The position numbers were made by a program, and so were the translations under genes. 43,067 nt of DNA, from the NCBI GenBank assembly GCA_035603475.1, contig DATNKH010000791.1, positions 1 through 43,067 of the forward strand, given 5' to 3'. Positions 2,166-40,058 of the stretch are shown here, piece by piece (the stretch's first letter is position 1; each line of letters opens with the position of its first letter). The DNA comes from Thermoanaerobaculia bacterium. Its GTDB lineage: Bacteria > Acidobacteriota > Thermoanaerobaculia > Multivoradales > UBA5704. The notes beneath the pieces are model-generated. The model was not told the DNA's origin, did no database searches, and saw only the letters and a list, made by a program, of their open reading frames with translations.

Positions 2166-2414
2166 ATGAGGACGACAATCCGATTGGACGACCATTTGCT
2201 CGCCGAAGCCAAGCAGCGTGCTGCTCGCGGCGGGCTCACCCTCACTGCCGTGATCGAGCAGGCGCTGCGTGAGAGCTTCAGCCGCCGGGAGCGCCGTGAG
2301 CAGAAGCCCGTAACGCTGCCGTCGTGGGGGGAGGGCTGGGTCTTGCCAGGAGTCGACCTCGACGATTCCGCCGCGTTGCTCGACCTGATGGAGCGCGAGG
2401 ATGCTCCTCCCTGA
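2166..2414 (+). CDS. vapB: Type II antitoxin, VapB/ribbon-helix-helix-like
   Basis: 82-aa ORF starting MRTTIRLDDHLLAEAKQRAA..LTAVIEQALRE, typical of an RHH-type antitoxin. It overlaps the downstream PIN gene by 14 nt. Confidence 0.75.
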   Translation: MRTTIRLDDHLLAEAKQRAARGGLTLTAVIEQALRESFSRRERREQKPVTLPSWGEGWVLPGVDLDDSAALLDLMEREDAPP

Positions 2415-2829
2415 CGTCAACGTCTTGGTCTATGCGCATCGCCAGGACGGGCCCGAGTATCCCCTCTATCGTGCTTGGCTGGAAGAGTTGGTGAGCGCCG
2501 ATGCGGCGTTCGGCATGGCCGACATCGTTCTCAGTGGCTTCTTGCGGATCGTCACCAACCCGCGGGTCTTCGCCCGCCCAACCCCGGTCAATCTTGCCGT
2601 CAGCTTCGCCGAGGAGCTGCGAGCCCAGCCGAACTGCGTGACGGTAGCTCCCGGACCGAGGCACTGGTCGATCTTCACCCGTCTCTGCGTCGGGGCGGGC
2701 GCGAAAGGCAATCTGGTTGCCGACGCCTATCTCGCCGCACTCGCCATCGAGTCGGGAAGCGAGTGGATCACCTCCGACCGCGGCTTCAGCCGGTTCCCGG
2801 AACTGCGCTGGCGCCATCCCCTGGCTTGA
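2401..2829 (+). CDS. vapC: Type II toxin, PIN-domain ribonuclease VapC
   Basis: 142 aa. It starts MLLPDVNVLVYA (first PIN Asp). The C-terminal region DAYLAALAIESGSEWITSDRGFSRF matches the PIN distal Asp motif. It is paired with a small upstream antitoxin. Confidence 0.85.
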   Translation: MLLPDVNVLVYAHRQDGPEYPLYRAWLEELVSADAAFGMADIVLSGFLRIVTNPRVFARPTPVNLAVSFAEELRAQPNCVTVAPGPRHWSIFTRLCVGAGAKGNLVADAYLAALAIESGSEWITSDRGFSRFPELRWRHPLA

Positions 2830-4085: not shown

Positions 4086-6374
4086 GTGAAGCTTCCCTGG
4101 GCAATCCCTGAAGCTTCTCGCAGGTTTCTCTCGTCGGAAGGGCGTTCATCGCCGGCCGGCGGGCCGCGGCCAGCCGAGGCGGCGCATCGTCATGGGAGAG
4201 CTCGAAGCTCCTCGCCCCGTCGTTCCCCCGGCTCCCGGCGCCGTCGTCTTCGGTCCATTCCGCTTCGACGCCGCCGACGGAGCGCTGTTCGGGACGGTGC
4301 CGAGGTGCCGTTGCCGCCCCGCGCCCTGGGCGTGCTGGCGCTCCTGGTCGAGCGCGCCGGCAGGCTGGTGCCCAAGCAGCTCCTGCTGGACACTGTCTGG
4401 AACGACGCCGTCGTCACCGAGACCTCGCTCACCGAGGCGGTGAGCGTGCTGCGCCAGGCGCTCCGCGACAATCCCCAGGCACCGACCTACATCCAGACGG
4501 TCCACCGCCGGGGCTATCGCTTCATCGCCGCGGCTGAGCCGCAAGCGCCGCGCATGCTCCACGAGCCGATCAGGGCCGGCAGCCGGCTGCCCCGGAGGAC
4601 CGGCCTGGCGCTGGCCATCGCGGCGGCGGCGCTCGCCGCCGCCCTCGCGGGCATGTGGCAGTCACTGCGCCGGCCGGCCCCGCTCGCCGGGACGGAGACA
4701 CCCCGGCGCCTGCTCATCGGCATCCCGCCAGGCGCCGTCCTGGATGCCGGCTTGGCGCCGGCGCTTGCCCTCTCGCCCTCCGGCGAGCAGCTGATCTTCG
4801 TGGCGCGCGAAGGCGGCACGCAGCGGCTGTACTTACGCGCTCTGGACCGTTTCGAGGCCAGCCCGATCGTGGGGAGCGAGGGGGCCGCGGCGCCTTTCTT
4901 CTCACCGGACGGTGAGTGGGTTGGCTTCTTCGCCCACGGCAAGCTCGAGAAGGTGGCGCTCGCCGGCGGCGAGCCGCTGGCCGTCTGCGACTCGCCTTAC
5001 CCCTATGGCGCCAGCTGGGGCGAGGATGGCTCCATCTTGTTTGCGCCCGATTACGCCTCCGGCTTGCGCCGCGCCGCCGCCGCGGGCGGCCAGCCAACCG
5101 TGCTCACCACCCCTGATCCAAGGGCCGGCGAGATCGGCCACCGCTGGCCGGAGGTGCTGCCGGGTGGGCGTGCGGCCCTGTTCACGGTGTGGCGGCGTGG
5201 TGGCTGGAAAGACGCCTCGGTCGAGCTCCTCGACCTCCAGACCGGTCGTCGCAGGGAGCTCATCCGGGGAGGAAGCTTTGCCCGCTATGCGCCCACGGGT
5301 CACCTCGTCTTCGCCCGTGCCGGCGGGGCACAAGGCTTGGCGGCGGTCGCTTTCGACCTGGGTCGGTTGGCGGTCCGCGGATCGCCCGTCGCCGTGCTCG
5401 ACGGCGTGCGCACCGACCCGGCCCAGGGAGCCGGCCAGTTCACCCTGTCGCGAGACGGCACGCTGGTGTACCTCCCGGGCGGACCCCAGGGCAACAGCAG
5501 GGCGGTCTACCTCCTTGCCCCCGCCGGCGGCGGACGGGCTCTGCCGCTGCCGGCGCGGTCGTACCGCAACCTGGCGCTCTCGGCGGACGGCCGGCGGCTT
5601 GCCTTGACGGTGCGCGAGCTCGATCGCTCGGAGCTCTGGGTCTCGGAGATCGATCGCGGCAGTCTCTCCCGCCTGACCTACGAGGGCGACAGCATCGAGC
5701 CGGTCTGGAGCCCCGACGGGCAATGGATCGCGTTCGCCTGGGCGCGCGGCGGACGCCACGAGATCTTCCGCGTCGCTGCGGACGGCAGCCGTCCGCCCGA
5801 GCGCCTCCTGGGTGGCGGCGGCAACATCCGTTTCCCGACGTCCTTCTCGCCCGATGGCAGGCTCCTCGCCTTCACCGAGATCGCTCCCGCAACTGGTGCC
5901 GACCTCTGGGTGCTGCCGCTGGGGGGAGCTCCGTGGCCTTTCTTGCGTACGGGTTTCAACGAAGCAGGGGCGCGCTTCTCGCCGGATGGCCGCTGGCTCG
6001 CCTACGAATCGAACGAGTCGGGGAGCATGGAGGTCTATGTGCGCCCCTTTCCCGGGCCGGGCGGGAAATGGCAGATCTCGGTGGGAGGTGGTTCGCTGCC
6101 TGCGTGGTCGGCCGACAGCCGTCGCGTCGTCTATCGCAGCGGGACCAAGCTCATGGCGGTGGAGCTGACCCAGGACGCGGCCGGCCGCCTGTCTGCCGGT
6201 CCGCCGCACCAGGAGCTCGACGAACCGGAGCTCGACCGCTTCGCCTTGCGCCCGGACGGGCGCAGCTTCCTGGTCTTTCGGCGAGCCTCGGCGGAGCCGG
6301 AACGCCTGCACGTGGTCCTGGGCTTCGGCAGAGAGCTCGCCCGCCTCGCACCGGCGGGCGGCCGTGCTCCTTAG
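4086..6374 (+). CDS. CadC/OmpR-type winged-helix regulator - TM helix - periplasmic TolB-like (PD40/WD40-like) beta-propeller, with a probable frameshift near 4290
   Basis: wHTH core VPLPPRALGVLALLVERAGRLVPKQLLLDTVWNDAVVTETSLTEAVSVLRQALRD...YIQTVHRRGYRFIA. TM helix GLALAIAAAALAAALAGMW. Repeated FSPDGEWVGF / WSPDGQWIAF / FSPDGRLLAF / FSPDGRWLAY blades. The first wHTH strands (VVFGPFRFDAADGALF) are encoded in another frame (ORF 4192-4443). Confidence 0.75.
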   Translation: MKLPWAIPEASRRFLSSEGRSSPAGGPRPAEAAHRHGRARSSSPRRSPGSRRRRLRSIPLRRRRRSAVRDGAEVPLPPRALGVLALLVERAGRLVPKQLLLDTVWNDAVVTETSLTEAVSVLRQALRDNPQAPTYIQTVHRRGYRFIAAAEPQAPRMLHEPIRAGSRLPRRTGLALAIAAAALAAALAGMWQSLRRPAPLAGTETPRRLLIGIPPGAVLDAGLAPALALSPSGEQLIFVAREGGTQRLYLRALDRFEASPIVGSEGAAAPFFSPDGEWVGFFAHGKLEKVALAGGEPLAVCDSPYPYGASWGEDGSILFAPDYASGLRRAAAAGGQPTVLTTPDPRAGEIGHRWPEVLPGGRAALFTVWRRGGWKDASVELLDLQTGRRRELIRGGSFARYAPTGHLVFARAGGAQGLAAVAFDLGRLAVRGSPVAVLDGVRTDPAQGAGQFTLSRDGTLVYLPGGPQGNSRAVYLLAPAGGGRALPLPARSYRNLALSADGRRLALTVRELDRSELWVSEIDRGSLSRLTYEGDSIEPVWSPDGQWIAFAWARGGRHEIFRVAADGSRPPERLLGGGGNIRFPTSFSPDGRLLAFTEIAPATGADLWVLPLGGAPWPFLRTGFNEAGARFSPDGRWLAYESNESGSMEVYVRPFPGPGGKWQISVGGGSLPAWSADSRRVVYRSGTKLMAVELTQDAAGRLSAGPPHQELDEPELDRFALRPDGRSFLVFRRASAEPERLHVVLGFGRELARLAPAGGRAP

Positions 6375-13112: not shown

Positions 13113-13261
13113 GAGCCAGGGAACCAGGTCGAGCCAGGGAACCAGGTCGAGCCAGGGAACCAGTTGAAGCCAGGGAATCAGGTAGGGTGGAGCCAGGGAG
13201 TCACGTAGAGGCAGGGAATCACGTCGAGCCAGGGAATCACGTCGAGCCAGGGAATGAACAG
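13113..13261 (+). repeat. 18-bp tandem repeat array, 8 copies (consensus GAGCCAGGGAAYCASGTC), intergenic, upstream of pilC
   Basis: Copies at 13113, 13131, 13149, 13167, then a 5-nt insert GGGTG, then 13190, 13208, 13226, 13244. Copies 1-2 are identical to each other, as are copies 7 and most of 8. The array ends 11 nt before ATG 13273. Confidence 0.9.
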
Positions 13262-13272
13262 AGAGCGAGCGT

Positions 13273-14493
13273 ATGCAGTTCTACTGTAGGGTCGGAACGC
13301 CCGAGGGCCGCGTTCTCGAGCAGACGTTCGTCGCCAGCGACGAGCCGGCCTTGCTGACCGAGCTGGCCAAGCTCGGCTATCACGTCTTCGAGGTGCGGCG
13401 GCGCGGCATGCCGCGCAAGCTCGGGGCGGCGGGGATCTTCGGACGCCACCGCAAGCCGATCCCGGTCCAGGAGTTCATGGTCTGGAATCGCGAGCTGGCG
13501 GTGCTGCTCAAGGCGGGCCTGCCGCTGCTGCAGGCGCTGGACCTGATGCTGGAGCGGATGGAGAACCAGCACTTCAAGGCGGTGCTGACCGACATCCGCG
13601 ACCGGGTCAAGAGCGGCCAGGACCTGTCCGAGGCCTTCGAGGAGCATGCCGAGCTCTTCCCCCGGCTGTTCCCCTCGACGCTCAAGGCCGGCGAGAAGAG
13701 CGGCGAGCTCGAGCAGGTCATCCGCCGCTTCATCCGCTACCTCAAGCTGGTGATGGACGCGCGGCGGCGAGTGATCACGGCGCTGGTCTACCCGGCGGTG
13801 CTGATCTGCCTGTCGATCACCATGATCAGCGTCATGATGGTCTACGTGGTGCCGAAGATCACCGTCTTCTTCGAGAACCTGGAGGTGGAGCTGCCGCTGA
13901 TGACGCGGATGCTGATCGCCGTCTCCGGCTTCGCGCATCGCAACGTCGTCTGGCTGGCGCTGGGCGTGCTGGGCGGCGTCGTCGCCTTCCGCGCCTGGCG
14001 GCGCACCGAGCCAGGCCGGCTGTGGCTGGACCGCGCCAAGCTCAAGCTGCCGTTCATCGGCCCGGTGCTCCACCGCTTCGCCCTCACCGAGCTCTGCCGC
14101 TCGCTCGCCACCCTGCTCTCCGGCGGCATCCCGCTGGTGCCGGCGCTCGAGATCGCGACCGACGCGGTCGGCAACGTCCAGGTCCGCCAGGCGATCGCGC
14201 CGCAGATCCAGCTGGTGCGGGAGGGCAAGCCCTTCCACGAGGCCCTCGAGCGCAGCGGCGTCTTCCTCGAGATGTCGATCGACATGATCAAGGTGGGCGA
14301 GGCCACCGGTTCGCTCGACGAGATGCTGACCAGCGTCGCCGACTTCATGGACGAGCAGATCGAGACCCGCATGGGGCGGATCCTGACGCTGATCGAGCCC
14401 CTGATGCTGGTGTTCATGGGCATCATCGTGGCGATGATCCTGGTCGCGATCTATCTGCCCCTGGTCAGCGCCCTGGGGCAGAGCCAGTACTGA
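13273..14493 (+). CDS. pilC: Type IV pilus / T2SS inner-membrane platform protein (GspF/PilC family)
   Basis: 406 aa with two GspF-type repeats (LAVLLKAGLPLLQALDLM... and LATLLSGGIPLVPALEIA...). It ends ...AMILVAIYLPLVSALGQ as is typical for PilC/GspF. It lies next to the ATPase gene. Confidence 0.9.
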   Translation: MQFYCRVGTPEGRVLEQTFVASDEPALLTELAKLGYHVFEVRRRGMPRKLGAAGIFGRHRKPIPVQEFMVWNRELAVLLKAGLPLLQALDLMLERMENQHFKAVLTDIRDRVKSGQDLSEAFEEHAELFPRLFPSTLKAGEKSGELEQVIRRFIRYLKLVMDARRRVITALVYPAVLICLSITMISVMMVYVVPKITVFFENLEVELPLMTRMLIAVSGFAHRNVVWLALGVLGGVVAFRAWRRTEPGRLWLDRAKLKLPFIGPVLHRFALTELCRSLATLLSGGIPLVPALEIATDAVGNVQVRQAIAPQIQLVREGKPFHEALERSGVFLEMSIDMIKVGEATGSLDEMLTSVADFMDEQIETRMGRILTLIEPLMLVFMGIIVAMILVAIYLPLVSALGQSQY

Positions 14494-14494
14494 T

Positions 14495-16171
<1,677 letters not shown>

Positions 16172-19281: not shown

Positions 19282-19961
19282 GACAGAGACAGAAGGTGCT
19301 GCTGGGCGTGCTGGTGGTGCTCGCGCTGATCCTGGCCTGGGTCTACCTGGTGCCCGGCGACGACGCCGCGCCGCCGCCGCCCGCGATCGGCCGCAGCGCC
19401 GGCGCGATCGACTCCGATGCCGGCGTCGCCGTCGCGCCGGAGCCGTCGCCCGCGCTGGCTCGGCACCCGGTGGGCGCCTTCGCGGTGGTATCCGCCAGCG
19501 ATGCCGCGCCGGGCGCCCCGCAGAACGTCGAGCCGCTGCGCCTGGCCGCCTTGAGCCAGGTCCCACCCGGGTTCACCACCGGCCGCGACCCATGGCGCTT
19601 CGTCGAGCCGCCGCCGCCGCCGCCGCCGAAGCCGCGGGTGCCGTCGGCGGCGGAGCAGAGAGCGATGCGGGAAGCGGAGGAGGCGCGGCAGCGGCAGCTC
19701 GCGGAGGCGGCGCGGCGCGCCGCGATCGATGCGGCGACGCCCAAGCCGCCGCCGTTTACCTGGTCCTATCTCGGCAACTTCGGCCCGAGCAGCCTGCGCA
19801 TCGCCGTCTTCACCGACGGCAAGCGGGTCTGGAACGCGCGCCAGGGCGAGACGCTGGAGAACAAGTTCATCGTGGCCCAGATCGGCTACGAGTCCGTGGA
19901 CATTCGCTTCGTCGGGTTCCCCGACGTGCCCGCAGAGAGACTCGCGGTGGTCAAGCACTAG
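19278..19961 (+). CDS. PilP/GspC-like periplasmic protein
   Basis: ATG 19278 overlaps the pilO stop (ATGA). N-terminal anchor VLLGVLVVLALILAWVYL, a Pro-rich linker (PPPPPPPKP), and a C-terminal beta-rich module LRIAVFTDGKRVWNARQGETLENKFIVAQIGYESVDIRF. It sits directly upstream of the secretin gene. Confidence 0.5.
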   Translation: MRQRQKVLLGVLVVLALILAWVYLVPGDDAAPPPPAIGRSAGAIDSDAGVAVAPEPSPALARHPVGAFAVVSASDAAPGAPQNVEPLRLAALSQVPPGFTTGRDPWRFVEPPPPPPPKPRVPSAAEQRAMREAEEARQRQLAEAARRAAIDAATPKPPPFTWSYLGNFGPSSLRIAVFTDGKRVWNARQGETLENKFIVAQIGYESVDIRFVGFPDVPAERLAVVKH

Positions 19962-19983
19962 CCGCTCGGAGGAACCTTTCAAG

Positions 19984-22740
19984 ATGCGACATTCCATGCT
20001 GCGGCTGCTGGTCCCCGTCTTGCTGGCGGCGCTGGTGGCGGGCTGCGCCGCCAACGCGAGCTTCCGCAAGGCGGAGTCGGCCGAGGTCGCCGGCAACTGG
20101 GACGAAGCCGTCCTGCGATACCTCGAGGCCCTCGACAACGACCCCGGCAACATCAAGTACCGGGCCGCCCTGCTGCGCGCCAAGATCAAGGCGTCGCAGA
20201 CGCACTTCGAGAAGGGCAAGCAGTTCGAGAAAGCGAACGTGCTGGAGCGGGCGCTGGTCGAGTACCAGCAGGCGGCCCAGCTCGACCCCACCAACCAGTA
20301 CGCCGCGGCGCAGCTCGAGCACACGCGCCGGGGGCTCACCGCCCAGCGCGAGAACCGCCCGAACGACACCATCGAGAAGATGAAGGAGAGGACGCGCGGC
20401 ACGCGGCCGCAGCCGCCGATGCTCAATCCGCGCTCCACCACGCCGATCTCGCTCGAGTTCCCGCAGCCGGTCTCCATCTTCCAGATCTATCGCGCGCTGG
20501 CGCAGGCGTTCGGCATCAACGTGCTGTTCGACCCCAACCTCAAGGACCAGGAGATCGCCATCGATCTCAAGGACGTCACCGCGCAGGCGGCGCTCGAGAC
20601 GCTGATGCACGCCGCCGGTCACTTCTACAAGGTCATCGACGAGCACACCATCCTGATCGCCGCCGACACGCCGCAGAACCGCCGCACCTACGAGGACCTC
20701 GTCATCCAGACCTTCTTCCTCTCCAACGCGGAGGTCAAGGACATGACGACGATCCTGCGCAGCCTGATCGACGCCAAGAAGATCGCCACCAACGATCAGC
20801 TCAACGCCATCATCCTGCGCGACACCGCCGACAAGGTGAAGGTGGCCGAGAAGATCATCGAGACCAACGACAAGTCGAAGGCCGAGGTGGTGGTTGACGT
20901 CGAGCTGCTGCAGATCAACACCAACCGCATGACCGACCTCGGCCTGGCCCTGTCCCAGTACTCGATCGGACAGGCGCTCGACACCGGCAACGCCACCACG
21001 ACCGGTACCGGCAGCACCGCCACCACCACGGGCGGCGGCCTGCGGGTCTCCGACATCCCGTTCCTGAACCAGAGCAACTGGATCCTGACCGTCCCGAACA
21101 TCGTCTACAACTTCGCCAAGACGGTCGGCGAGGCGCAGCTGCTCGCCAAGCCGCAGCTGCGCATCACCGAGGGCCAGAAGGCCAACCTGGTGATCGGCGA
21201 CAAGATCCCGATCCCGCTGACCACCTTCAACACCTCGAACACGATCGGCGGGACGATCGTGCCGATCACCTCCTTCCAGTACCAGGACGTCGGCATCAAG
21301 ATCGAGATCGAGCCGCGCGTCCACCACAACCAGGAGGTGACGCTGAAGGTCAAGATCGAGGTCAGCAACCTGGGCAGCAACGTCACCTTCAACGGCCAGA
21401 CGCAGCCGACCATCAGCACCCGCACCTTCGACACCACCATCCGGCTGCAGGACGGCGAGACCAACCTGCTGGCCGGCCTGCTGCGCACCGACGACACCAA
21501 GACCAGCACGGGCATCCCCGGGCTCTCCGACCTGCCGCTCATCGGCCGGCTGTTCTCGGACAAGTCGCACACCAGCGCCCACACCGACGTCATCCTGACG
21601 CTGACGCCGCACATCATCCGCAACGCCGAGATCACCCAGGAGGACCTGCTGCCGATCTGGGTCGGCACCGAGGCCAACGTCAGCTTCCGCGGCACCAGCA
21701 CGCGCGCCGAGTCGGAGACCGAGGGCCCGTTCGAGGGCAACGAAGGCACCCCCGAGGAGATCCAGGACGCCATCCGGCGGCGCATCCAGCGGCTGCCGCG
21801 CGGCCTGCGCAACGACGAGGAAGGCGGAGGCGGGGCGCCGCAGCAGCCGCCGCCGGCCGGGCAGGCGCCGCCGCCCGGCATGAACTTGACGCCGGCGACG
21901 CCGCCGAGCGACATCTTCAAGCCGACGGTGCCGGCGACGCCCACGCCGCCAGCGCCGCAGAAGCCGCCGCCACCACCGTCCGAGGGCGAGCCGCCGGCAG
22001 GCGGGCCACAGTCCTCGGCGTTGCGCGCACCGGCCCCGGCCCCGGCCGCGGCCCCGGTGGCCCCGGCGGCCAGGTCCGCCATGGCACCGAGGCTGCAGGA
22101 GCCGGGTGCGGGACCGCGGACGGCCCCGGTGGCGGTCCGGGCCGCCTACCGGCAGGAGGATGCCGCGGCGGCCCAGGGCGCGGCCGTGCGAGTGTGGCTG
22201 CTGCCGCGCCGGCTCACCGTGGCCGCGGGCGATCTCTTCGAGGTCGCGGTGCAGGTGTCGGCCGACCGGCCGATCTCCCACCTGCCGCTCACCCTGGTCT
22301 TCGACCCGTCGCTGCTGGCGGTCGAAGCGGTGGCCCCCGGCGACTTCCTGGGCGACAGCGGCAAGGCCGAGATCCTGGCGGATTTCAGCCGGCCGGGCGA
22401 GGTCGTCGTGGGAGCGAGCCGGCTGGGCGACCAGGCGGGCGTCACCGGCGCCGGCAACCTGGTGCGGGTCACCTTCCGCGCGCTGACCGCCGGGTCGGCG
22501 CTGGTCGGTTTCGCCGGCCGCGAAGCGCTCGACAACGCCTTGCGGCCGGTGCTGCCGATCTCGGTCAAGCCGGCGCACATCGAGGTGCAGGACGGCGGCG
22601 GCGGGAATGGCGGTGGCGGCGGACACCGCCAGCCCGCGAAGCCTGGCGCGCCGCCGGCCGCCACGCCACCGTCCTCCGGGCCCTCCGGGGCGTCCTCCGG
22701 GGCATCCGGGCCCTCCGGGGCGGGACCTTCGGACGGCTGA
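19984..22740 (+). CDS. pilQ: Secretin (PilQ/GspD family) with N-terminal lipobox + TPR module and C-terminal cohesin-like domain
   Basis: ATG 19984 is preceded by GGAGGA. Lipobox LAALVAGC. TPR-like AGNWDEAVLRYLEALDNDPGN...ALVEYQQAAQLDPTN. Secretin N-domains are present. The secretin core is ...AQLLAKPQLRITEGQKANLVIGDKIPI...GIPGLSDLPLIGRLFS...TDVILTLTPHII. A Pro-rich linker follows. The cohesin-like region is VRVWLLPRRLTVAAGDLFEVAVQVSADRPISHLPLTLVFDPSLLAVEAVAPGDFL...GNLVRVTFRALTAGSALV. Confidence 0.9.
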   Translation: MRHSMLRLLVPVLLAALVAGCAANASFRKAESAEVAGNWDEAVLRYLEALDNDPGNIKYRAALLRAKIKASQTHFEKGKQFEKANVLERALVEYQQAAQLDPTNQYAAAQLEHTRRGLTAQRENRPNDTIEKMKERTRGTRPQPPMLNPRSTTPISLEFPQPVSIFQIYRALAQAFGINVLFDPNLKDQEIAIDLKDVTAQAALETLMHAAGHFYKVIDEHTILIAADTPQNRRTYEDLVIQTFFLSNAEVKDMTTILRSLIDAKKIATNDQLNAIILRDTADKVKVAEKIIETNDKSKAEVVVDVELLQINTNRMTDLGLALSQYSIGQALDTGNATTTGTGSTATTTGGGLRVSDIPFLNQSNWILTVPNIVYNFAKTVGEAQLLAKPQLRITEGQKANLVIGDKIPIPLTTFNTSNTIGGTIVPITSFQYQDVGIKIEIEPRVHHNQEVTLKVKIEVSNLGSNVTFNGQTQPTISTRTFDTTIRLQDGETNLLAGLLRTDDTKTSTGIPGLSDLPLIGRLFSDKSHTSAHTDVILTLTPHIIRNAEITQEDLLPIWVGTEANVSFRGTSTRAESETEGPFEGNEGTPEEIQDAIRRRIQRLPRGLRNDEEGGGGAPQQPPPAGQAPPPGMNLTPATPPSDIFKPTVPATPTPPAPQKPPPPPSEGEPPAGGPQSSALRAPAPAPAAAPVAPAARSAMAPRLQEPGAGPRTAPVAVRAAYRQEDAAAAQGAAVRVWLLPRRLTVAAGDLFEVAVQVSADRPISHLPLTLVFDPSLLAVEAVAPGDFLGDSGKAEILADFSRPGEVVVGASRLGDQAGVTGAGNLVRVTFRALTAGSALVGFAGREALDNALRPVLPISVKPAHIEVQDGGGGNGGGGGHRQPAKPGAPPAATPPSSGPSGASSGASGPSGAGPSDG

Positions 22741-30085: not shown

Positions 30086-31294
30086 ATGACTGACAACCCG
30101 CTAGCTGCCATTGAGCCACGAGCACTGGCGGCTCGCGTTCGGGAGGCAAGAGAGGCCCGCGGCTGGACCCAGCAAGAGTTAGGTGACCGTCTTGGGATGG
30201 CACGAACCACGATTGTGGCTATCGAGAAGGCAGAGCGGCGCCTCAAACCGCGGGAGTTGATTGAGCTAGCAAGACTACTTGGAAGAAATGTGTCGGAACT
30301 CTTACAGCGGAGCAGTCCGCCTGAGGGGTTCTCCGTGCAGCTCCGGAGTGCTCTGCCAGTGTCTGCTCCTGTGGATTACGATCTAGTTCCGTACATCGAG
30401 GAGTTCCAACATCGATGTGAAGATTACCTAAGGCTTGAAGAGATCTGTCACGTGCCGCTACGAAGGCGGTATCCACCTGAATACGATATTCAGGGAGTGG
30501 ACCCCGACCAGGCTGCGGAGGACTTGGCGGCGGCCGAACGGAGTCGACTAGATCTAGGGGAAGGGCCGGTCTTGAGCCTTCGGGATCTACTCGAGACCGA
30601 AGTAGGGCTTCGAGTGTTTCAGCTTGATCTTCCGTCGAAGATCGCAGGGATGTTTGCTTTCGCAGCGTCTCTTGGAGGCTGCATTGCAATCAACCTTCGC
30701 CACCCGGTTGAGCGCCGGCGCATGAGCCTAGCCCACGAATACGGTCACTTCCTTATCGCCCGTTTCCGTTTCGAGATCACCTTTGATGGTCGCTATGAGC
30801 GAAGGCCCGCAGCAGAGCGCTTTGCAGAGGCCTTTGCAAGAGCCTTCCTGATGCCTGCTTCAGGGGTACGCCGACGCTTTCTAGAACACGAGCGCGAGAG
30901 ACCGCAAGGGATTACTTATGGCGATCTTTGCCGGCTAGCTCACTCTTATCTTGTTTCACTCGAAGCCATAACTCGCAGACTAGAGGAGCTTCGCCTGATC
31001 CCACTCGCCACCTGGGAGCGGCTCCGCCAAGAGAGATTTCGAGTCTATGAGGCAAAGCAGATTCTTGGCCTCGAATCTGCCGCTCATACCGATGATGCCC
31101 CGTTTTCGCCCCGCTACATTGCACTGGCAGTCGAAGCCTGGCAGCAAGGCGAGCTAAGTGAGGGCCAGCTTGCACATATTTTGCGCGTTGACCGTCTGGG
31201 GGCTCGCGAGCTTGCGCTAGCCGCTGCGGACGGAAGTGATCGAGGTGCCTTAGTGAACTTCGGAGCTCCGCTTTTCAGTTCGGGCAGTCGGTGA
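30086..31294 (+). CDS. XRE-family HTH fused to ImmA/IrrE-type (COG2856) zinc metallopeptidase
   Basis: HTH: LAARVREAREARGWTQQELGDRLGMARTTIVAIEKAER. The metallopeptidase HExxH lies in RRMSLAHEYGHFLIA. 402 aa. Confidence 0.85.
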   Translation: MTDNPLAAIEPRALAARVREAREARGWTQQELGDRLGMARTTIVAIEKAERRLKPRELIELARLLGRNVSELLQRSSPPEGFSVQLRSALPVSAPVDYDLVPYIEEFQHRCEDYLRLEEICHVPLRRRYPPEYDIQGVDPDQAAEDLAAAERSRLDLGEGPVLSLRDLLETEVGLRVFQLDLPSKIAGMFAFAASLGGCIAINLRHPVERRRMSLAHEYGHFLIARFRFEITFDGRYERRPAAERFAEAFARAFLMPASGVRRRFLEHERERPQGITYGDLCRLAHSYLVSLEAITRRLEELRLIPLATWERLRQERFRVYEAKQILGLESAAHTDDAPFSPRYIALAVEAWQQGELSEGQLAHILRVDRLGARELALAAADGSDRGALVNFGAPLFSSGSR

Positions 31295-31306
31295 AACCGG
31301 CGAGTC

Positions 31307-31876
31307 ATGTCCGAGGAGCGACCCGAGGCGCCGCTTTTGCTTTTTGATGCATGCTGCCTTATAAACCTCTTTGCTACTGGGCGGATCGAGGAGATCTTAG
31401 CTTGTCTTCCTTTTCGCTGCGCCACCTCTCGGCTGGTTGCCTCCAGGGAGGTCCTTGCGATCGCAGTCGAGGGATTGGCTGCTGAGCCTTTAGGGCGGGA
31501 CGTCATCCCGGCAAGCCGCCTTGAGACTGTGGCCAATCTGGCACTTCTGGATCTTGATACCGACGAAGAACTTGCAGCATTTGTTGGCTTCGCGTTGGAA
31601 CTCGACGATGGCGAAGCCTCAGTATGTTCACTTGCAGTGGCGCGGGGAAGGACGGTCGCAACCGATGATCGCAAGGCGCTTCGCATAATGGCGGAGTTGA
31701 CGCCGCCCGTTCTAACGGTGCAGACTCCGGATCTACTTTTCGAGTGGGCGGAGCGTCTCGAGCCGCCAAAAGCGGAAATACGTAGTGCTTTGCAGCGGGT
31801 TCAGCGGCGCGGTCGGTTCTACCCCCGCGTCGGTGCGCCTAGGCTTGAGTGGTGGGAGACCTTCCTGCAGGGCTGA
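31307..31876 (+). CDS. PIN-like domain protein, putative toxin partner of XRE-ImmA
   Basis: LLLFDACCLINL (first Asp) and LDDGEASVCSLAVARGRTVATDDRKALR (GE...T.D motif) fit a PIN fold. It lies 12 nt downstream of the XRE-ImmA gene and has the same low GC. Confidence 0.55.
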   Translation: MSEERPEAPLLLFDACCLINLFATGRIEEILACLPFRCATSRLVASREVLAIAVEGLAAEPLGRDVIPASRLETVANLALLDLDTDEELAAFVGFALELDDGEASVCSLAVARGRTVATDDRKALRIMAELTPPVLTVQTPDLLFEWAERLEPPKAEIRSALQRVQRRGRFYPRVGAPRLEWWETFLQG

Positions 31877-32104: not shown

Positions 32105-32344
32105 ATGGCTGCGGCTACCATCACCAGCAAAGGCCAGGTCACCATCCCGAAGGAGGTGCGCAAGGCGCTGTCCCTGGAGACGGGAGACAGGGTTGCCTTC
32201 GTGGTGCGCGACGACGGCGTGGCGGAGATGCACCGCGAGACGGTGGAGCTGATGTCTCTCTTCGGAGCCATCAAGCCTCGCGTCAAGGGGGTCAGCCTGC
32301 GGGACATGGACGACGCGATCCGCCGTTCCACGGCCCGCAAGTGA
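32105..32344 (+). CDS. AbrB/MazE/SpoVT-family antitoxin
   Basis: ITSKGQVTIPKEVRKALSLETGDRVAFVV is the canonical SpoVT-AbrB looped-hinge motif. The stop overlaps the GTG start of the PIN gene (GTGA). Confidence 0.85.
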   Translation: MAAATITSKGQVTIPKEVRKALSLETGDRVAFVVRDDGVAEMHRETVELMSLFGAIKPRVKGVSLRDMDDAIRRSTARK

Positions 32345-32862
32345 TCGCGCTTGACACCAACGTCCTGGTTCGGTTCCTGGTCGAGGACGATCCGGAGCAG
32401 AGCCGCCAAGCCAAGGCTTTGCTCGAGCGGGCCATCGCTGCCAACAGCGCTTGCTTCGTCTCCGAGGTCGTGGTCTGCGAGGTCGTGTGGGTCCTCGGGA
32501 CGAGTTACCAGGTTGGCCGCGAAGATATTGCCAGGGTCCTGAGGCAACCGCTGCGCGCGCGACACCTCACCTTCCCCGAGGGGGAACGCCTCTCGCGAGC
32601 CCTGAGTGCCTTCGACTCCGGGCGCGGGGACTTCGCCGATTACTTGATCCGAGAAGCCGCCCGAGAAGCAGGGTGTGAGGCCGTTGCGACCTTCGACCGC
32701 GGACTGCTGCGCGAGACGGGGTTCGTCGCCCCCTCACTCGCGCAGCTTGCGACCCACCGGCGCGCTCCCCTCCTCCTCCCCAGCAGTAGGTCCTCCCGCC
32801 GGCGGCAGTTGGCAGAGCACGAACGCCCCATGGGTGTACGGGGGATCGAAGTCGTTCGTTGA
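32341..32862 (+). CDS. vapC: PIN-domain toxin VapC (unusually long C-terminal tail)
   Basis: MIALDTNVLVRFLVEDD, ...FVSEVVVCEVVWVL..., ...GDFADYLIREAAREAGCEAVATFDRGL are PIN motifs. The last ~40 aa (R/S-rich) run into a convergent ORF and may not be genuine. Confidence 0.8.
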   Translation: MIALDTNVLVRFLVEDDPEQSRQAKALLERAIAANSACFVSEVVVCEVVWVLGTSYQVGREDIARVLRQPLRARHLTFPEGERLSRALSAFDSGRGDFADYLIREAAREAGCEAVATFDRGLLRETGFVAPSLAQLATHRRAPLLLPSSRSSRRRQLAEHERPMGVRGIEVVR

Positions 32863-36958: not shown

Positions 36959-39900
36959 CCCTGGGCCACAGCCCGCAAGGAATGAACCAGGACGGTCAGG
37001 GAAGCCGTGAGCACGTCTTCCGATAAGGTCTGTCGCCAAAATACTGCTTCCATTGTTCTTCACCCAGGTTGCGAGTCAGCCTTGAACAGGCTTCTCGAAT
37101 CAACTCTTCGGGCCGCAACAGGTCTCGCTGCACCGAGACGTAATCTGATCTTGCCGAGGTTACTGCTTCGGACTCCAACCTGCCGGACGAGGCAGTTTGA
37201 AGAATGCGGCCTTCCTCCATGAAGTTCATCGCTTTAACACGTCCGTCCACATTGATGCGCGACAGCTCGCGGCCTGTGGCTGCCTGGAACACTCGTACAG
37301 TGTAGTCACTGCTGGCACTGGCGACAGAGACATTATCGGGGCTGATGGTCAACGACGTTACCGAGGCCTGGTGCGCCAGCCGCGCAACCTCCTTACCGCT
37401 TGCCGTCTCAAAGACATGCGCCATGCGACCGACTCCGGTGGCAAGCCAGCGCCCATCAGGGCTGAATGCGACGGCGCCGACACTGGAGTGCTCGCTCAGG
37501 TGCCAAACCTCGCGGCCAGTGGAGGCAAGGAACACGCGTGCCGTACCATCTGACGAGCCAGTGCCCAAGCGACTGCTGTCAGCACTGAAAGCCAAGACTT
37601 CAACCGCGCTTCGATGCTGCAGGCGAACGACTTCCTTCCCACGCAGAACGTCGAAGATATGCACCTCGTGGTCTCCACCGGCGGTAGCCACGAGGCGACT
37701 ATCAGGGCTGAAGAGCATGGCGCCCAAGCCTTCCCCAAGTTTGCAGGCGAACACGATCGCGCCATTCGCCGCTGCTGAGACACGGGCTTCACCATCTGCA
37801 CTCGCGCTTGCCACCCAGCGGCCATCTGGACTGAACGAGACGGCCTCGACCTCCTTCTCGGCCAATTGCGCCAACTTCCTGCCGCTTGGAACTGCGAAGA
37901 CCCGAGCGCCGTCGTCGTCGGCGATCGCCACTTTCCGACCGTCACCGCTAAAGGCAGCGGGCTCACCCTCGCCGAGATACAGTAATCGCTTCCCGGTAGG
38001 CTTGAAGCTGGCGAGGTCAAGCGGTTGAAGAGTCATTGCCGCCAGGAGATCTCTACGCGGCAAGCGCAGGACGATCTCGCCAAGCGCTATATCGATAACT
38101 TCGATAGACTGACCATCATAACTCTTCACCGCGAGCCAGCGCCCATCAGGGCTGAATCGCACGGTCGTAAGCAGGTTCTGCTCCGGAAGCCGTGTTACCT
38201 CGCGACCATCAGAAGCCTGGAGCGCGCTCAGGGTGCCTCCCGTTCCTATGAAAAGCCTGCGACCATCCGCGCTAAAGGCGACCAGGAGTACCGGGCCTTG
38301 CTGGTTGAGGTGAGCCACCTCCCTACCGCCCGATGTCTCGAAGATACAAGCTGTGGCGTCGTGGCTGCCCGTTGCGATCCAGCGAGCATCAGGGCTGAAT
38401 GCAATTGAGTCGACGAAATCCCGATGCGCCAGTCGTAAAAGCTCCTTGCCCGTCGAACGCTCGAAGACCCGTGCTGTGCTGTCATTATTTCCAGTGGCAA
38501 CCAAACGACTATCTGAACTAAACACGAGCGCGCGAACCCCACCCATGACGGAGAACGGTTCTCCGCCAGCGGAAGCCACGCGCTCTCGCCATCCGCTGGG
38601 GTCCGGGCGTGGTAATTCTTTACCATCCGCGATGCCGGCAACTCTTGCCGTTCCATCCCAACCGCCGCTGGCGATCCATCGGCTGTCCGGGCTGAATGCA
38701 AGGGCAGTGACACCGCCGCTGTGGAGCGCGAGAGCGATTCTCTTCCCACCGCCTATCTCGAGTACCTGCACAATGCCGTCATCGCTTCCCGCGGCTATCC
38801 ACAGCTCATCAGGGCTGAAAGCAAGCGCAGAGATGTAGCGCGGCTGTCCGTGACGCACCGCTTCTTTGCCAGTAGAGAGATCCACCACGGATAGTGTGCC
38901 GCTCCTGCTCGCTCTCGCCAGCCATCGCCCAGTCCCGCTCAGGGCTGTAAGGTAAGTTCCTTCTTGGCCCGCCAACTGGGCGATTGACTTCCCGGTGTCC
39001 AGCTCAACAAGACGTGACGAACCTTCGAGAGTTCCCGCAGCTATCGCTTTACCGTTAGGGGAGAAGGCCAAAGATACGACCTTGGCGTTCCCAATCCAAT
39101 GTGCCACCTCAGTACCCGCACGGCCATCGAACACATGCACAGAGCGATCTCCGCGCGCTATCGCGACAAGACCGGTGGCGCCAAATGCCGAGGCTGTAAT
39201 CGTGTCGGCCGATTTGTTCGCGAATAGCGGTCGCCGTAAATGGTACAAAGACTCGCGTAAGGCCTGGTCGTTTTCTATGCTCGGAAGCAAGCGCATTGAT
39301 TCAATCGCAAGCAGCACCCTGGTCTCTAGCGCGAAGGGTTGGCCCCGCAGCTGATCCGACTGGGCCGCCAATTGCCGGGAAAACGCGGCCCGCCTTTGTT
39401 GATTGGCGATCGCTGCCTCAAACGCCGCTACGAGCGCACCAGCTAGAATGACAGCGAGAAGACCGCCCAGGAAGACTCTGCGTCGCCTGTTCGCCCGGAA
39501 GAAGCCAAAGAAAGCGACGATTCTCTCAACTACTTCAGGCGACGCATCGTCTAGTCCTGTAACCTCCTCGCGCTCGTCAATCCAAACACGGTCCGTCTGT
39601 TGCAAGATCATTTGCACCGACGGGCCCGGAGCAGAGCCGGCAGGCGGAGCGTCTATCAGCAAAGGCCGCGAAGCGGCCAAGCGGATTGGAATGATCTGTC
39701 GCGAGTAGGTCGCAAAGACACGGAGTTCGTTCAACACGTATTGCGATCGCAGGCTTCCGGGCGAAACCACGATGACCAGCGCTCTACTGCGACGTAGTGC
39801 AGTGCGCACCGTATCAGCGAGAGGCGATCCTGCGGGAAGGTCGTGGTCGTCGAGGAAGCAATGGATATCCCTCCCCCGGAGCTGCCGCTCAAGACTTGCT

Positions 39901-40058
39901 GCATATCTCGAGACCTCCTGTCGTTTGTATGAGATGAAGACATCGAAGCCAAAAAGTGGCGCCCAGTTGATGGACCGTCGAACCGGGAAGGCGCCATCAT
40001 CACGCTTCAGGTCTGCCTCGACGCCCATAGGATTCGGTCAGGAACGCAAGTCGCTGCA
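36959..40058. mobile_element. Putative inserted single-gene cassette (low GC, bounded by 14-bp direct repeats), with no recombinase inside
   Basis: The GC drop (about 52% in hand-counted line 37201-37260) coincides with the TIR-WD40 ORF. It is bounded by the direct repeat copies at 36945-36958 and 40059-40072. Confidence 0.4.
36996..40028 (-). CDS. TIR domain - single transmembrane helix - ~15 WD40 repeats
   Basis: TIR: FDVFISYKRQEVSRYAASLERQLRGRDIHCFLDDHDLPAGSPL...SRALVIVVSPGSLRSQYVLNELRVF. TM: RANRRRR-VFLGGLLAVILAGALVAAFEAAI (about nt 39408-39476). About 15 blades follow of the form AFSPDGRWIA.GS.DGTARVF....GKEV. At DNA level these blades recur as ...CATCAGGGCTGAATGC... . Confidence 0.85.
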   Translation of the reverse strand: MGVEADLKRDDGAFPVRRSINWAPLFGFDVFISYKRQEVSRYAASLERQLRGRDIHCFLDDHDLPAGSPLADTVRTALRRSRALVIVVSPGSLRSQYVLNELRVFATYSRQIIPIRLAASRPLLIDAPPAGSAPGPSVQMILQQTDRVWIDEREEVTGLDDASPEVVERIVAFFGFFRANRRRRVFLGGLLAVILAGALVAAFEAAIANQQRRAAFSRQLAAQSDQLRGQPFALETRVLLAIESMRLLPSIENDQALRESLYHLRRPLFANKSADTITASAFGATGLVAIARGDRSVHVFDGRAGTEVAHWIGNAKVVSLAFSPNGKAIAAGTLEGSSRLVELDTGKSIAQLAGQEGTYLTALSGTGRWLARASRSGTLSVVDLSTGKEAVRHGQPRYISALAFSPDELWIAAGSDDGIVQVLEIGGGKRIALALHSGGVTALAFSPDSRWIASGGWDGTARVAGIADGKELPRPDPSGWRERVASAGGEPFSVMGGVRALVFSSDSRLVATGNNDSTARVFERSTGKELLRLAHRDFVDSIAFSPDARWIATGSHDATACIFETSGGREVAHLNQQGPVLLVAFSADGRRLFIGTGGTLSALQASDGREVTRLPEQNLLTTVRFSPDGRWLAVKSYDGQSIEVIDIALGEIVLRLPRRDLLAAMTLQPLDLASFKPTGKRLLYLGEGEPAAFSGDGRKVAIADDDGARVFAVPSGRKLAQLAEKEVEAVSFSPDGRWVASASADGEARVSAAANGAIVFACKLGEGLGAMLFSPDSRLVATAGGDHEVHIFDVLRGKEVVRLQHRSAVEVLAFSADSSRLGTGSSDGTARVFLASTGREVWHLSEHSSVGAVAFSPDGRWLATGVGRMAHVFETASGKEVARLAHQASVTSLTISPDNVSVASASSDYTVRVFQAATGRELSRINVDGRVKAMNFMEEGRILQTASSGRLESEAVTSARSDYVSVQRDLLRPEELIREACSRLTRNLGEEQWKQYFGDRPYRKTCSRLP

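What the first reader, a model, noticed from the sequence alone, without database searches (positions are those of the whole stretch)
36996..40028. Receptor-like TIR protein: cytoplasmic TIR - one TM helix - ~15 WD40 blades (best candidate for a novel system)
Seen: a 1010-aa minus-strand ORF. Residues ~27-125 form a TIR fold (FDVFISYKRQE ... DIHCFLDDHDL ... SRALVIVVSPGSLRSQYVLNELRVF). They keep a glutamate (NEL, about residue 101, ~70 aa after the FISY strand) where NAD+-cleaving TIR domains carry their catalytic Glu. Residues ~185-207 (VFLGGLLAVILAGALVAAFEAAI) form one strongly hydrophobic helix preceded by RANRRRR. By the positive-inside rule this puts the TIR domain in the cytoplasm and the remaining ~800 aa outside. 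The caveat is that QQRRAAFSR follows the helix, so the topology is not certain. The rest is ~15 tandem WD40/PD40-like blades, enough for two propellers. Inference: the topology mirrors Toll-like receptors (extracytoplasmic repeat sensor - TM - cytoplasmic TIR). It also mirrors the CadC-like wHTH-TM-propeller regulator at 4086-6374 in this window, but with an NADase-type signalling or suicide output instead of DNA binding. Established knowledge: TIR domains are effectors or signal generators in Thoeris, in CBASS/Pycsar effectors and in Avs/NLR-like systems, all of which are cytosolic sensors. I am not aware of an experimentally characterised membrane-spanning TIR-WD40 single-gene system. An envelope-sensing abortive-infection or contact-sensing function is therefore a testable hypothesis. 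The gene stands alone, has foreign base composition, and sits in an island rich in toxin-antitoxin genes.
Basis: partly seen in the sequence, partly recalled or inferred. Interest (0 to 1): 0.8.

Follow-up and report, generated by a model that had tools for sequence, protein, structure and literature searches.

The report
Membrane-anchored TIR enzyme with WD40 sensor
A soil acidobacterium carries a horizontally acquired gene for a single-pass membrane protein with a SARM1-like NAD+-cleaving TIR domain predicted inside the cell and two WD40 propellers predicted outside, one member of a large family that nobody has studied and whose layout recalls a Toll-like receptor.

Summary
ORF 36996-40028(-) is a real 1010-aa gene under purifying selection (dN/dS 0.22). 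It encodes a TIR_2 domain, one strongly hydrophobic helix (residues 185-207) preceded by RANRRRR, about 15-16 WD40 blades forming two propellers, and a short Cys-pair tail. Glu101 is invariant in 52 relatives and aligns with the catalytic Glu642 of SARM1.

The gene is not unique. At least about 90 clusters (50% identity) share the TIR-TM-WD40 layout, in Acidobacteriota, Planctomycetota, Myxococcota, Proteobacteria and Gemmatimonadota. Net flank charge is +4.9 on the N side against +1.2 on the C side, with N>C in 85 of 89 and never the reverse. That predicts a cytoplasmic TIR and a periplasmic WD40 array. The same TM-linker-WD40 chassis carries kinase, STAND NTPase and caspase heads in relatives.

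Two caveats apply. A few close relatives replace the TM helix with a charged coiled coil and must be soluble. Topology, NADase activity and defence function are all untested.

Context is variable and often conflict-like (clusters of TIR genes, patatin, transposase, low GC), with no conserved partner gene.

Verdict: a new variant of known kinds, moderately to highly interesting.

The parts
36996..40028 (-). Complete gene for the 1010-aa TIR-TM-WD40 protein, stop codon included
   Evidence: ORF listing. Identical protein on 5 metagenome contigs. 96% orthologue with dN/dS 0.22.
39513..39950 (-). TIR domain, residues ~27-172, SARM1-like NADase type
   Evidence: Pfam TIR_2 30-123, E 1.6e-16. AF2 pLDDT above 90. 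Foldseek top hits SARM1, RUN1, RPV1, AbTir. Profile against PDB: best hit SARM1 TIR, E 2e-15.
39726..39728 (-). Codon of Glu101, the predicted catalytic glutamate, in motif S-x-Y-V-x-N-E
   Evidence: Invariant in 26/26 and 52/52 family members. Aligned with SARM1 E642 in the profile-PDB alignment.
39477..39512 (-). Conserved basic juxtamembrane motif, residues 173-184 (FFGFFRANRRRR); family consensus F.(Y/F)(T/R)RRN..RRR
   Evidence: Family alignment with R178 nearly invariant.
39408..39476 (-). Predicted single transmembrane helix, residues 185-207 (VFLGGLLAVILAGALVAAFEAAI)
   Evidence: KD 2.61, the only candidate in the protein, Hessa sum -2.15. A helix is present at the same position in about 89 of 94 relatives. 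It is part of one continuous AF2 helix, 179-226.
39201..39407 (-). Helical linker or cap, residues 208-276 (SRQLAAQS...LLAIES...P..E....L motif), joining the helix to the first propeller
   Evidence: AF2 helices 179-226, 231-247, 251-263. The motif is shared with kinase-, NTPase- and caspase-headed relatives.
37119..39200 (-). WD40 repeat array, residues 277-970: 15-16 blades forming two propellers
   Evidence: Pfam WD40 234 bits. 15 blades by self-HMM. About 64 strands in AF2. Foldseek best hits 2ymu, Pwp2, Apaf-1, Aip1 double propellers.
36999..37118 (-). C-terminal two-helix tail with conserved Cys pair (C981...C1006; consensus ACSRLTRNLT.EEWKQYLG.EPYRKTC)
   Evidence: Tail HMM found in 107 of ~270 collected relatives, Cys-Cys in 92 of them. 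AF2 helices 973-983 and 990-997. Also present in TM-less relatives.

Best explanation
The gene encodes a single-pass, N-in/C-out inner-membrane protein of a diderm soil acidobacterium (Thermoanaerobaculia).

Shown by sequence and model:
- an N-terminal TIR domain of the SARM1/AbTir-like NAD+-glycohydrolase type, with its catalytic Glu intact;
- a conserved Arg-rich juxtamembrane motif;
- one hydrophobic helix that runs on as a long stalk helix;
- a helical cap;
- two WD40 propellers and a small Cys-pair tail.

Inferred: the TIR domain is cytoplasmic and the WD40 array periplasmic. The propellers bind a protein or envelope-derived ligand that appears in the periplasm, for example a phage or competitor-delivered protein. 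Ligand-driven clustering is passed through the stalk/TM helix and brings the cytoplasmic TIR domains together. TIR NADases need such self-association to form their composite active site (established for SARM1, AbTir and plant TIRs). The activated TIR then depletes NAD+ or makes an ADPR-derived signal, stopping growth or killing the cell. This would be an abortive-infection or conflict response carried out by one gene.

The protein is one head variant of a modular receptor chassis (TM-linker-WD40-tail). In relatives the same chassis carries Ser/Thr kinase, STAND NTPase, caspase or trypsin heads.
For: TIR identity and catalytic Glu.

TM helix: KD 2.61, unique in the protein. It is conserved in position but not in sequence in about 89 of 94 relatives.

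Topology: net flank charge is +4.85 (N side) against +1.17 (C side), N>C in 85 of 89 and never N<C. In relatives with other heads it is +3.63 against +0.80, N>C in 73 of 87. ATP-dependent heads (kinase, NTPase) occupy the same N-terminal position. DeepTMHMM placed homologous kinase-TM-WD40 arrays in the periplasm (PMC11032199). Some WD40 paralogues start with plain signal peptides. The host makes lipid A/Kdo and a secretin, so it has a periplasm.

Modularity typical of conflict systems:
- head swapping on a 55-61% identical sensor (P0055, P0153-P0156);
- sensor swapping to DUF4384 or unknown domains;
- versions with 5-7 tandem TIR domains.

Context:
- low-GC insertion;
- relatives next to other TIR-NTPase-repeat genes, patatin, RepB primase and a DDE transposase.

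The gene is functional: dN/dS is 0.22.
Against: - No experiment exists for any family member. I could not run a dedicated topology predictor.
- The C-side flank still carries about 3 Lys/Arg in 15 residues, 3 in the query.
- Close sensor relatives (P0206, P0185, P0165) keep the same linker, WD40 and Cys-pair tail but have a charged coiled coil in place of the TM helix and no signal peptide. The same sensor therefore also works in the cytoplasm.
- The one orthologue pair available shows no diversifying selection on the WD40 array: dN/dS 0.25.
- PADLOC matches are at domain level only.
- In this window the neighbours are metabolic or helicase genes, not a recognised defence island.
- The ligand is unknown.
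Confidence: 0.55

Rival explanations
1. The architecture and topology are as above, but the protein is an ordinary signalling receptor rather than an immune or suicide device. The periplasmic WD40 array would sense an environmental, cell-cell or kin-recognition cue. The TIR domain would make a low-level nucleotide second messenger (a cADPR isomer) or act as an assembly platform for cytoplasmic partners, in the way the kinase-headed paralogues presumably signal by phosphorylation.
For: - The same chassis carries Ser/Thr kinase heads in very many relatives.
- The family is enriched in bacteria with complex social or predatory lifestyles: Myxococcota, Planctomycetota, Acidobacteriota.
- The sensor is under purifying, not diversifying, selection.
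- The 96% orthologue keeps the same chromosomal slot.
Against: - No conserved downstream receptor gene for a TIR product sits next to family members.
- The TIR type is closest to NAD+-depleting enzymes.
- Relatives cluster with caspase, patatin and TIR-STAND conflict genes.
- The gene has foreign GC and its phyletic distribution is patchy.
Confidence: 0.22
2. The hydrophobic segment does not cross the membrane. The whole protein would be cytoplasmic or peripherally membrane-attached, and the helix would act as an oligomerisation core or stalk, as the coiled coil does in the TM-less relatives. The WD40 array would then sense a cytosolic ligand, as in Apaf-1 or Avs-type sensors.
For: - TM-less relatives have a charged coiled coil at exactly this position, with the same linker, WD40 and Cys-pair tail.
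- PF00400-type WD40 sensors are classically cytosolic: Apaf-1 and STAND proteins.
- The C-side flank is not free of Arg.
Against: - The segment is 19-23 uncharged residues with KD 2.0-3.2.
- Its sequence is not conserved but its hydrophobicity is.
- A strongly conserved Arg cluster sits on one side only.
- Net charge asymmetry holds in 85 of 89 cases.
- A surface-exposed 20-residue apolar helix would be unstable in a soluble protein.
- AF2 models it as an isolated continuous helix rather than packed into a domain.
Confidence: 0.1
3. The TIR domain is catalytically silent and serves only as a homotypic scaffold or adaptor, as in animal TLR/MyD88 signalling, or the protein is a secreted or host-directed TIR effector like TcpB/BtpA.
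For: - TIR domains also work as scaffolds.
- The profile hits BtpA, TcpB and PdTIR at E 1e-12 to 1e-14.
Against: - The catalytic Glu, the aromatic residue four positions before it (W/Y-x-x-x-E) and the D-x-F-(I/L)-S-Y strand are invariant or nearly so.
- The best matches are active NADases.
- The host is a free-living soil acidobacterium.
- The protein is membrane-anchored, with no secretion signal at its N-terminus.
Confidence: 0.06

Closest known systems
SARM1 / AbTir / plant TIR NADases (enzymatic TIR domains)
   Same: Same fold and same catalytic Glu position. SARM1 TIR is the best PDB sequence hit (E 2e-15). Foldseek top hits are SARM1, RUN1, RPV1, L7 and AbTir. Activation by self-association is the likely shared logic (established knowledge, not tested here).
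   Different: Those proteins are soluble. Their regulation comes from ARM/SAM domains (SARM1), NB-ARC-LRR (plants) or coiled coils (AbTir). Here the TIR is tethered by a conserved basic juxtamembrane motif to a TM helix and a WD40 ectodomain.
Bacterial TIR-STAND(nSTAND1/NACHT/NB-ARC)-WD40/TPR conflict proteins (Kaur et al. 2020/2021; Avs/bNACHT-like)
   Same: Same head (TIR_2) and a homologous WD40 sensor with the same linker and Cys-pair tail, for example P0185 and P0165. Such genes lie next to family members.
   Different: There is no P-loop NTPase switch between head and sensor. Instead there is a membrane-spanning helix, so any regulation must cross the membrane.
Single-pass Ser/Thr kinases with periplasmic WD40/TPR arrays (Planctomycetota, Myxococcota; PMC11032199)
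   Same: Same chassis: cytoplasmic catalytic head, one TM helix, long WD40 array. The sensors are 30-35% identical to the query's and have the same charge asymmetry.
   Different: The output is a TIR NAD+ hydrolase rather than a protein kinase, and the TIR family has its own conserved juxtamembrane motif.
Animal Toll-like receptors / IL-1 receptors
   Same: Same overall logic: an extracytoplasmic solenoid or repeat sensor, a single TM helix and a cytoplasmic TIR.
   Different: The polarity is opposite: type II, with TIR at the N-terminus. The sensor is a WD40 propeller rather than LRR or Ig. The TIR is of the enzymatic SARM1-like type, not an adaptor-recruiting scaffold. There is no evidence of common descent of the whole architecture.
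ToxR/CadC-type one-component membrane regulators (e.g. window 4086-6374)
   Same: Cytoplasmic N-terminal output domain, one TM helix and a periplasmic sensor. In the window's own example the sensor is a propeller (Trans_reg_C + PD40).
   Different: The output there is DNA binding, and the propeller is of the PD40/TolB type, unrelated to this WD40 array.

Membership tests
TIR domain superfamily, enzymatic (NADase) class | Match to the TIR profile above the curated threshold | tested here: met
   PF13676 TIR_2: 61.3 bits against a cutoff of 28, residues 30-123.
TIR domain superfamily, enzymatic (NADase) class | Flavodoxin-like TIR fold | tested here: met
   AF2 pLDDT above 90 across residues 28-125. 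Foldseek probability 1.00 to SARM1, RUN1, RPV1 and AbTir.
TIR domain superfamily, enzymatic (NADase) class | Catalytic glutamate at the position of SARM1 E642 / RUN1 E100 / AbTir E208 | tested here: met
   E101 aligns with the E of SARM1 WVHKEIV, which counts to 642 from D563. It is invariant in 52 of 52 relatives.
TIR domain superfamily, enzymatic (NADase) class | NAD+ cleavage activity | not testable with these tools
   Needs a biochemical assay with an E101A control.
Thoeris (ThsB TIR sensor + ThsA effector) | Adjacent ThsA (SIR2/SLOG or Macro/TM) effector gene, and a ThsB-family match above threshold | tested here: not met
   Neighbours are a GMC oxidoreductase and an SNF2 helicase. NCBIfam ThcB4 scores 34 bits against a cutoff of 220. 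PADLOC ThsB E 3.5e-5, TIR region only.
STAND/NLR-like TIR sensors (Avs, bNACHT, TIR-nSTAND1-WD40) | Central P-loop STAND NTPase between effector and repeats | tested here: not met
   No NTPase family hit in the protein. Only about 60 residues and the TM helix lie between TIR and linker.
STAND/NLR-like TIR sensors (Avs, bNACHT, TIR-nSTAND1-WD40) | C-terminal superstructure-forming repeat sensor homologous to theirs | tested here: met
   The sensor is 30-40% identical to nSTAND1/AAA_16-WD40 proteins, with the same linker and tail.
CBASS / Pycsar TIR effectors | Cyclase gene in the operon and a nucleotide-sensing domain (SAVED, STING, CAP12) fused to the TIR | tested here: not met
   No such domains or neighbours. 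PADLOC SAVED_TIR hits cover only the TIR, residues 29-103.
Single-pass receptors with periplasmic WD40 arrays (described for Ser/Thr kinases) | One TM helix between the cytoplasmic head and the WD40 array, N-in topology | tested here: inconclusive
   The helix and the charge asymmetry strongly predict it, and there is literature precedent. No dedicated topology predictor or experiment was available, and TM-less relatives exist.
Single-pass receptors with periplasmic WD40 arrays (described for Ser/Thr kinases) | Protein kinase head | tested here: not met
   The head is TIR_2, with no Pkinase hit.
Toll-like receptors | Type I orientation, LRR ectodomain and C-terminal scaffold TIR | tested here: not met
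   The TIR is N-terminal, the ectodomain is WD40, and the TIR is of the enzymatic type. The resemblance is in layout only.

The most novel reading that the evidence does not exclude
Bacteria may possess true transmembrane innate-immune receptors: a widespread class in which a periplasmic WD40 double propeller detects invader-derived molecules in the envelope and signals through one helix to a cytoplasmic death or signalling head. The head is a SARM1-like TIR NADase here, and a kinase, STAND NTPase or caspase in paralogues. The TIR version would be a functional analogue of Toll-like receptors with an enzymatic output. It would show that TIR activation by ligand-induced clustering across a membrane arose in prokaryotes.
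Probability: 0.3. Interest if true: 0.85.

Novelty: new variant of a known kind. Interest (0 to 1): 0.6.

Why it matters
All characterised bacterial TIR systems (Thoeris, CBASS/Pycsar effectors, SPARTA, Avs-like) sense events in the cytoplasm. A TIR NADase wired to an extracytoplasmic sensor would add envelope surveillance to the known modes of bacterial immunity. That would mean detection of an attacker before or while it crosses the inner membrane.

It would also give a minimal, one-gene model for how clustering across a membrane switches on a TIR enzyme, and a prokaryotic counterpart to the TLR layout.

The same TM-linker-WD40 module carries kinase, NTPase, caspase and TIR heads, and also exists in soluble form. 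The family is therefore a natural experiment in swapping receptor modules. It is also large: about 90 or more clusters at 50% identity for the TIR version alone. Results on one member would explain many unannotated 'WD40 repeat protein' genes in soil bacteria.

Tried and rejected
1. A word-index homologue search with residues 1-282 found only 2 hits. The exhaustive search was needed to see the family.
2. The search for related loci with the 26-sequence alignment failed because no stretch was conserved enough. It worked with a 5-sequence alignment.
3. I considered the conserved Cys pair in the C-terminal tail as evidence for a periplasmic disulfide. I rejected this because the same tail with both Cys occurs in relatives that have neither a TM helix nor a signal peptide.
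4. I looked for diversifying selection on the WD40 array against the 96% orthologue and found none: dN/dS 0.25, against 0.14 for the TIR. This is one pair only.
5. I looked for DNA-level tandem repeats or concerted evolution among the blades and found none.
6. Promoter and terminator scans were uninformative, with counts no higher than in shuffled sequence. No obvious Shine-Dalgarno sequence lies upstream of the ATG.
7. I tested whether the adjacent SNF2 helicase is a functional partner and rejected it. Adjacency is kept only in the 96% orthologue and is absent from all more distant relatives. The PADLOC hits to DpdE, ZorD and DrmD are at helicase-domain level only.
8. PADLOC and NCBIfam gave no system-level or equivalog match.
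9. Literature searches for 'TIR-WD40', for bacterial TIR architectures with WD40, and for TIR plus periplasmic plus anti-phage found no description of this architecture. The library is open-access only, so absence is not proof.


Full report
**The observation**

The 1010-aa ORF at 36996-40028 on the minus strand exists as described. It is a real gene. The identical protein is called on five independent soil-metagenome contigs. A 96%-identical orthologue from another sample differs by 43 residues, with dN/dS 0.22 overall: TIR 0.14, TM and linker 0.31, WD40 0.25, tail 0.08.

GC is 0.58-0.60 over the gene against roughly 0.70-0.75 in most of the window. GC3 is 0.62 against 0.83-0.96 in neighbours. 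The 'foreign composition' remark therefore holds.

The host is an uncultured member of Thermoanaerobaculia (Acidobacteriota). Its PilB/GspE ATPase is 90-92% identical to proteins from MAGs so named. The window also encodes lipid A acyltransferase, Kdo transferase and a secretin, so the host is a diderm with a periplasm.

**Anatomy**

- **TIR domain.** Pfam TIR_2 matches residues 30-123 at 61 bits against a cutoff of 28. AF2 with a 26-sequence family alignment gives a confident TIR fold, mean pLDDT 86. The best Foldseek hits are all NAD+-cleaving TIRs: SARM1, RUN1, RPV1, SNC1, L7, AbTir, SPARTA.
- **Catalytic Glu.** A family profile searched against PDB sequences hits the SARM1 TIR best (E 2e-15). 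It places the family's invariant Glu (E101 in the query) on the Glu of SARM1 WVHKEIV. Counting from D563 of the full-length chain, that is E642, the catalytic residue. E101 is invariant in 26 of 26 and 52 of 52 aligned relatives. So are D29, F31, S33 and G67, and an aromatic residue sits four positions before the Glu.
- **Hydrophobic helix.** Residues 185-203 are the only strongly hydrophobic stretch (KD 2.61; next best 1.35; summed Hessa scale -2.15). RANRRRR precedes it.
- **Stalk and cap.** The full-length AF2 model (pLDDT 81) draws one continuous helix over residues 179-226 and then two short helices.
- **WD40 array and tail.** About 64 strands follow from 277 to 970, then a two-helix tail. 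A self-built blade HMM finds 15 repeats. The model is closest to tandem double propellers: 2ymu from Nostoc, Pwp2, Apaf-1, Aip1, Gemin5.

**It is a family, not a singleton**

An exhaustive search with residues 1-282 found 5184 representatives at E<=1e-3 and 843 at E<=1e-10. Of the best 150, about 94 are proteins of 600-1250 aa that align through the TIR, the juxtamembrane motif and the helix.

- 77 of the 94 carry a helix with KD>=1.8 at residues 150-220, and most of the rest carry a slightly weaker one at the same place.
- In a sample of 52, all have TIR_2 and 48 have WD40-type propellers after the helix.
- Genome hits that extend through the helix come from Bryobacteraceae, other Acidobacteriota, Planctomycetota, Pyxidicoccus (Myxococcota), Tropicimonas, Wenzhouxiangellaceae and Gemmatimonadales.
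- Variants exist with DUF4384 or an unknown domain after the helix, and with five to seven tandem TIR domains before it.

**Topology**

I could not run a dedicated predictor, so I used family statistics. In the TIR family the 15 residues before the helix have mean net charge +4.85, against +1.17 after it. N>C holds in 85 of 89 cases and N<C in none. The sequences are related, so this is not 89 independent trials, but they are representatives at below 50% identity.

The sensor half (residues 186-1010) was searched separately. Its nearest relatives are other TIR-headed proteins at 55-61% identity. One of them, P0055, is nearly identical just after the helix but has a different TIR head. After those come nSTAND1/AAA_16-, Pkinase-, caspase/CHAT- and trypsin-headed proteins at 30-40% identity.

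About 100 of these 120 have one hydrophobic helix immediately upstream of the same linker motif. Their charge asymmetry runs the same way: +3.63 against +0.80, N>C in 73 of 87. Kinase and NTPase heads need ATP and must be cytoplasmic, which fixes the WD40 array outside in those proteins.

A published DeepTMHMM analysis of Planctomycetota kinases reached the same conclusion: kinase cytoplasmic, WD40/TPR periplasmic (PMC11032199). Several WD40 paralogues begin with ordinary signal peptides. Translocating a 185-residue N-terminal domain without a signal peptide is not a realistic alternative (established knowledge of Sec/YidC insertion).

**Caveat**

Three close sensor relatives (P0206, P0185, P0165) have the same linker, WD40 array and Cys-pair tail but no hydrophobic segment anywhere. 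A charged coiled coil (EEAERQR...) replaces the helix. The sensor module therefore works on both sides of the membrane in different proteins. The conserved Cys pair, found in 92 of 107 tails, cannot be read as a periplasmic disulfide. The C-side flank also keeps about three Lys/Arg. I rate N-in/C-out at roughly 0.75-0.8, not as settled.

**Context**

The gene lies 70 bp downstream of a GMC oxidoreductase on the same strand and converges on an SNF2 helicase 53 bp away. There is no room for mobility genes. The 96% orthologue occupies the same slot, while the region beyond the helicase differs: it has extra VapBC pairs and DUF3631.

The toxin-antitoxin pair (32105-32862) and an HTH-M78 gene resembling RmrA/CapP (30086-31294) lie in a separate low-GC patch.

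More distant relatives show no conserved partner. They do repeatedly sit among conflict-type or mobile genes:
- four other TIR genes plus patatin;
- TIR-nSTAND1-WD40, TIR-NB-ARC-TPR, TIR-TPR and DUF4062-AAA_16-WD40;
- RepB primase plus patatin, two further TIR genes, or a DDE transposase.

PADLOC and NCBIfam give only domain-level matches.

**Mechanism**

Shown: an intact SARM1-like active site, a single apolar helix with one-sided Arg cluster, a double WD40 propeller, and modular exchange of heads and sensors.

Inferred: ligand binding to the periplasmic propellers clusters the receptor. The continuous stalk/TM helix and the invariant juxtamembrane motif pass this on. The cytoplasmic TIR domains then self-associate and hydrolyse NAD+ or make an ADPR-derived signal, arresting or killing the cell.

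The existence of versions with 5-7 TIR domains in cis fits a requirement for TIR-TIR assembly.

Rivals are a non-immune signalling receptor, a non-spanning helix with a cytosolic sensor, and a scaffold-only TIR.

**Comparison and novelty**

The protein is a member of the TIR superfamily of the enzymatic class; three of four defining features were tested and met. It is not Thoeris, CBASS/Pycsar or a STAND/NLR-type protein, because it has no partner gene, no nucleotide sensor and no NTPase. It shares its chassis with membrane Ser/Thr kinases that carry periplasmic WD40 arrays, but has a different head. It resembles Toll-like receptors in layout only, with reversed polarity, a WD40 sensor and an enzymatic TIR.

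I found no paper that describes or tests a TM-separated TIR-WD40 protein. The library covers open-access papers only.

I class it as a new variant of known kinds. It is widespread and uncharacterised, and topology and function remain to be shown.

Noticed in passing
P0004 (2023 aa), P0015 (1629 aa) and about 20 similar hits: Relatives with 5-7 tandem TIR_2 domains, followed by one hydrophobic helix (at residue 1476 or 1046) and a WD40 propeller. These are arrays of TIR domains in cis on the presumed cytoplasmic side.
   Followed up: partly
P0206, P0185, P0165: Soluble versions of the same sensor. The linker, WD40 array and Cys-pair tail are identical in type, but a charged coiled coil (EEAERQR...) sits where the TM helix is in the query, and there is no signal peptide.
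   Followed up: yes
Window 36999-37118 (residues 971-1010); 107 of ~270 collected relatives: A small conserved C-terminal module (consensus WLLRPEDLIAEACSRLTRNLTPEEWKQYLGDEPYRKTCPLP) with a nearly invariant Cys pair. It caps WD40 arrays with TIR, NTPase, kinase and caspase heads. No Pfam family matched it.
   Followed up: partly
P0157-P0270: Most nSTAND1/AAA_16-WD40 relatives have a hydrophobic helix between the NTPase and the WD40 sensor. This implies STAND NTPases whose sensor lies across the membrane from the switch domain, which is hard to reconcile with the usual fold-back autoinhibition.
   Followed up: no
Window 30086-31876 (+): A low-GC patch (0.57-0.60) holds an HTH_3 + Peptidase_M78 gene that matches PADLOC RmrA (E 2.5e-25) and CapP/CapH. 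A 189-aa gene with no family match follows it. This may be a regulator-effector or toxin-antitoxin-like pair.
   Followed up: partly
Window 32105-32862 (+) and 2389-2829 (+): A MazE/AbrB-type antitoxin and a PIN toxin overlap by 4 bp (VapBC-like). A second PIN gene lies near the start of the window. The orthologous locus L055 has two additional such pairs and a DUF3631 gene.
   Followed up: partly
Window 19555-22740 (+): A 1061-aa secretin (TPR + Secretin_N + Secretin) carries a C-terminal cohesin domain, an unusual addition to a T2SS/T4P secretin. It lies downstream of T2SSF and T2SSE/MshEN genes (13258-16171).
   Followed up: no
I did not check it for a TM helix.
   Followed up: partly
L057, L060, L009: Family members sit in clusters of paralogous TIR genes: TIR-PQQ/FG-GAP propeller, TIR-ParA-like, TIR-nSTAND1-WD40, TIR-NB-ARC-TPR, TIR-TPR and DUF4062-AAA_16-WD40. 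Patatin-like phospholipases are nearby in two loci.
   Followed up: partly
L045:7869-9182 and L012:7962-10529: The same TIR-juxtamembrane-TM head is joined to other C-terminal modules: DUF4384 in a Gemmatimonadales MAG, and a ~650-aa region with no Pfam match in a Wenzhouxiangellaceae MAG.
   Followed up: no
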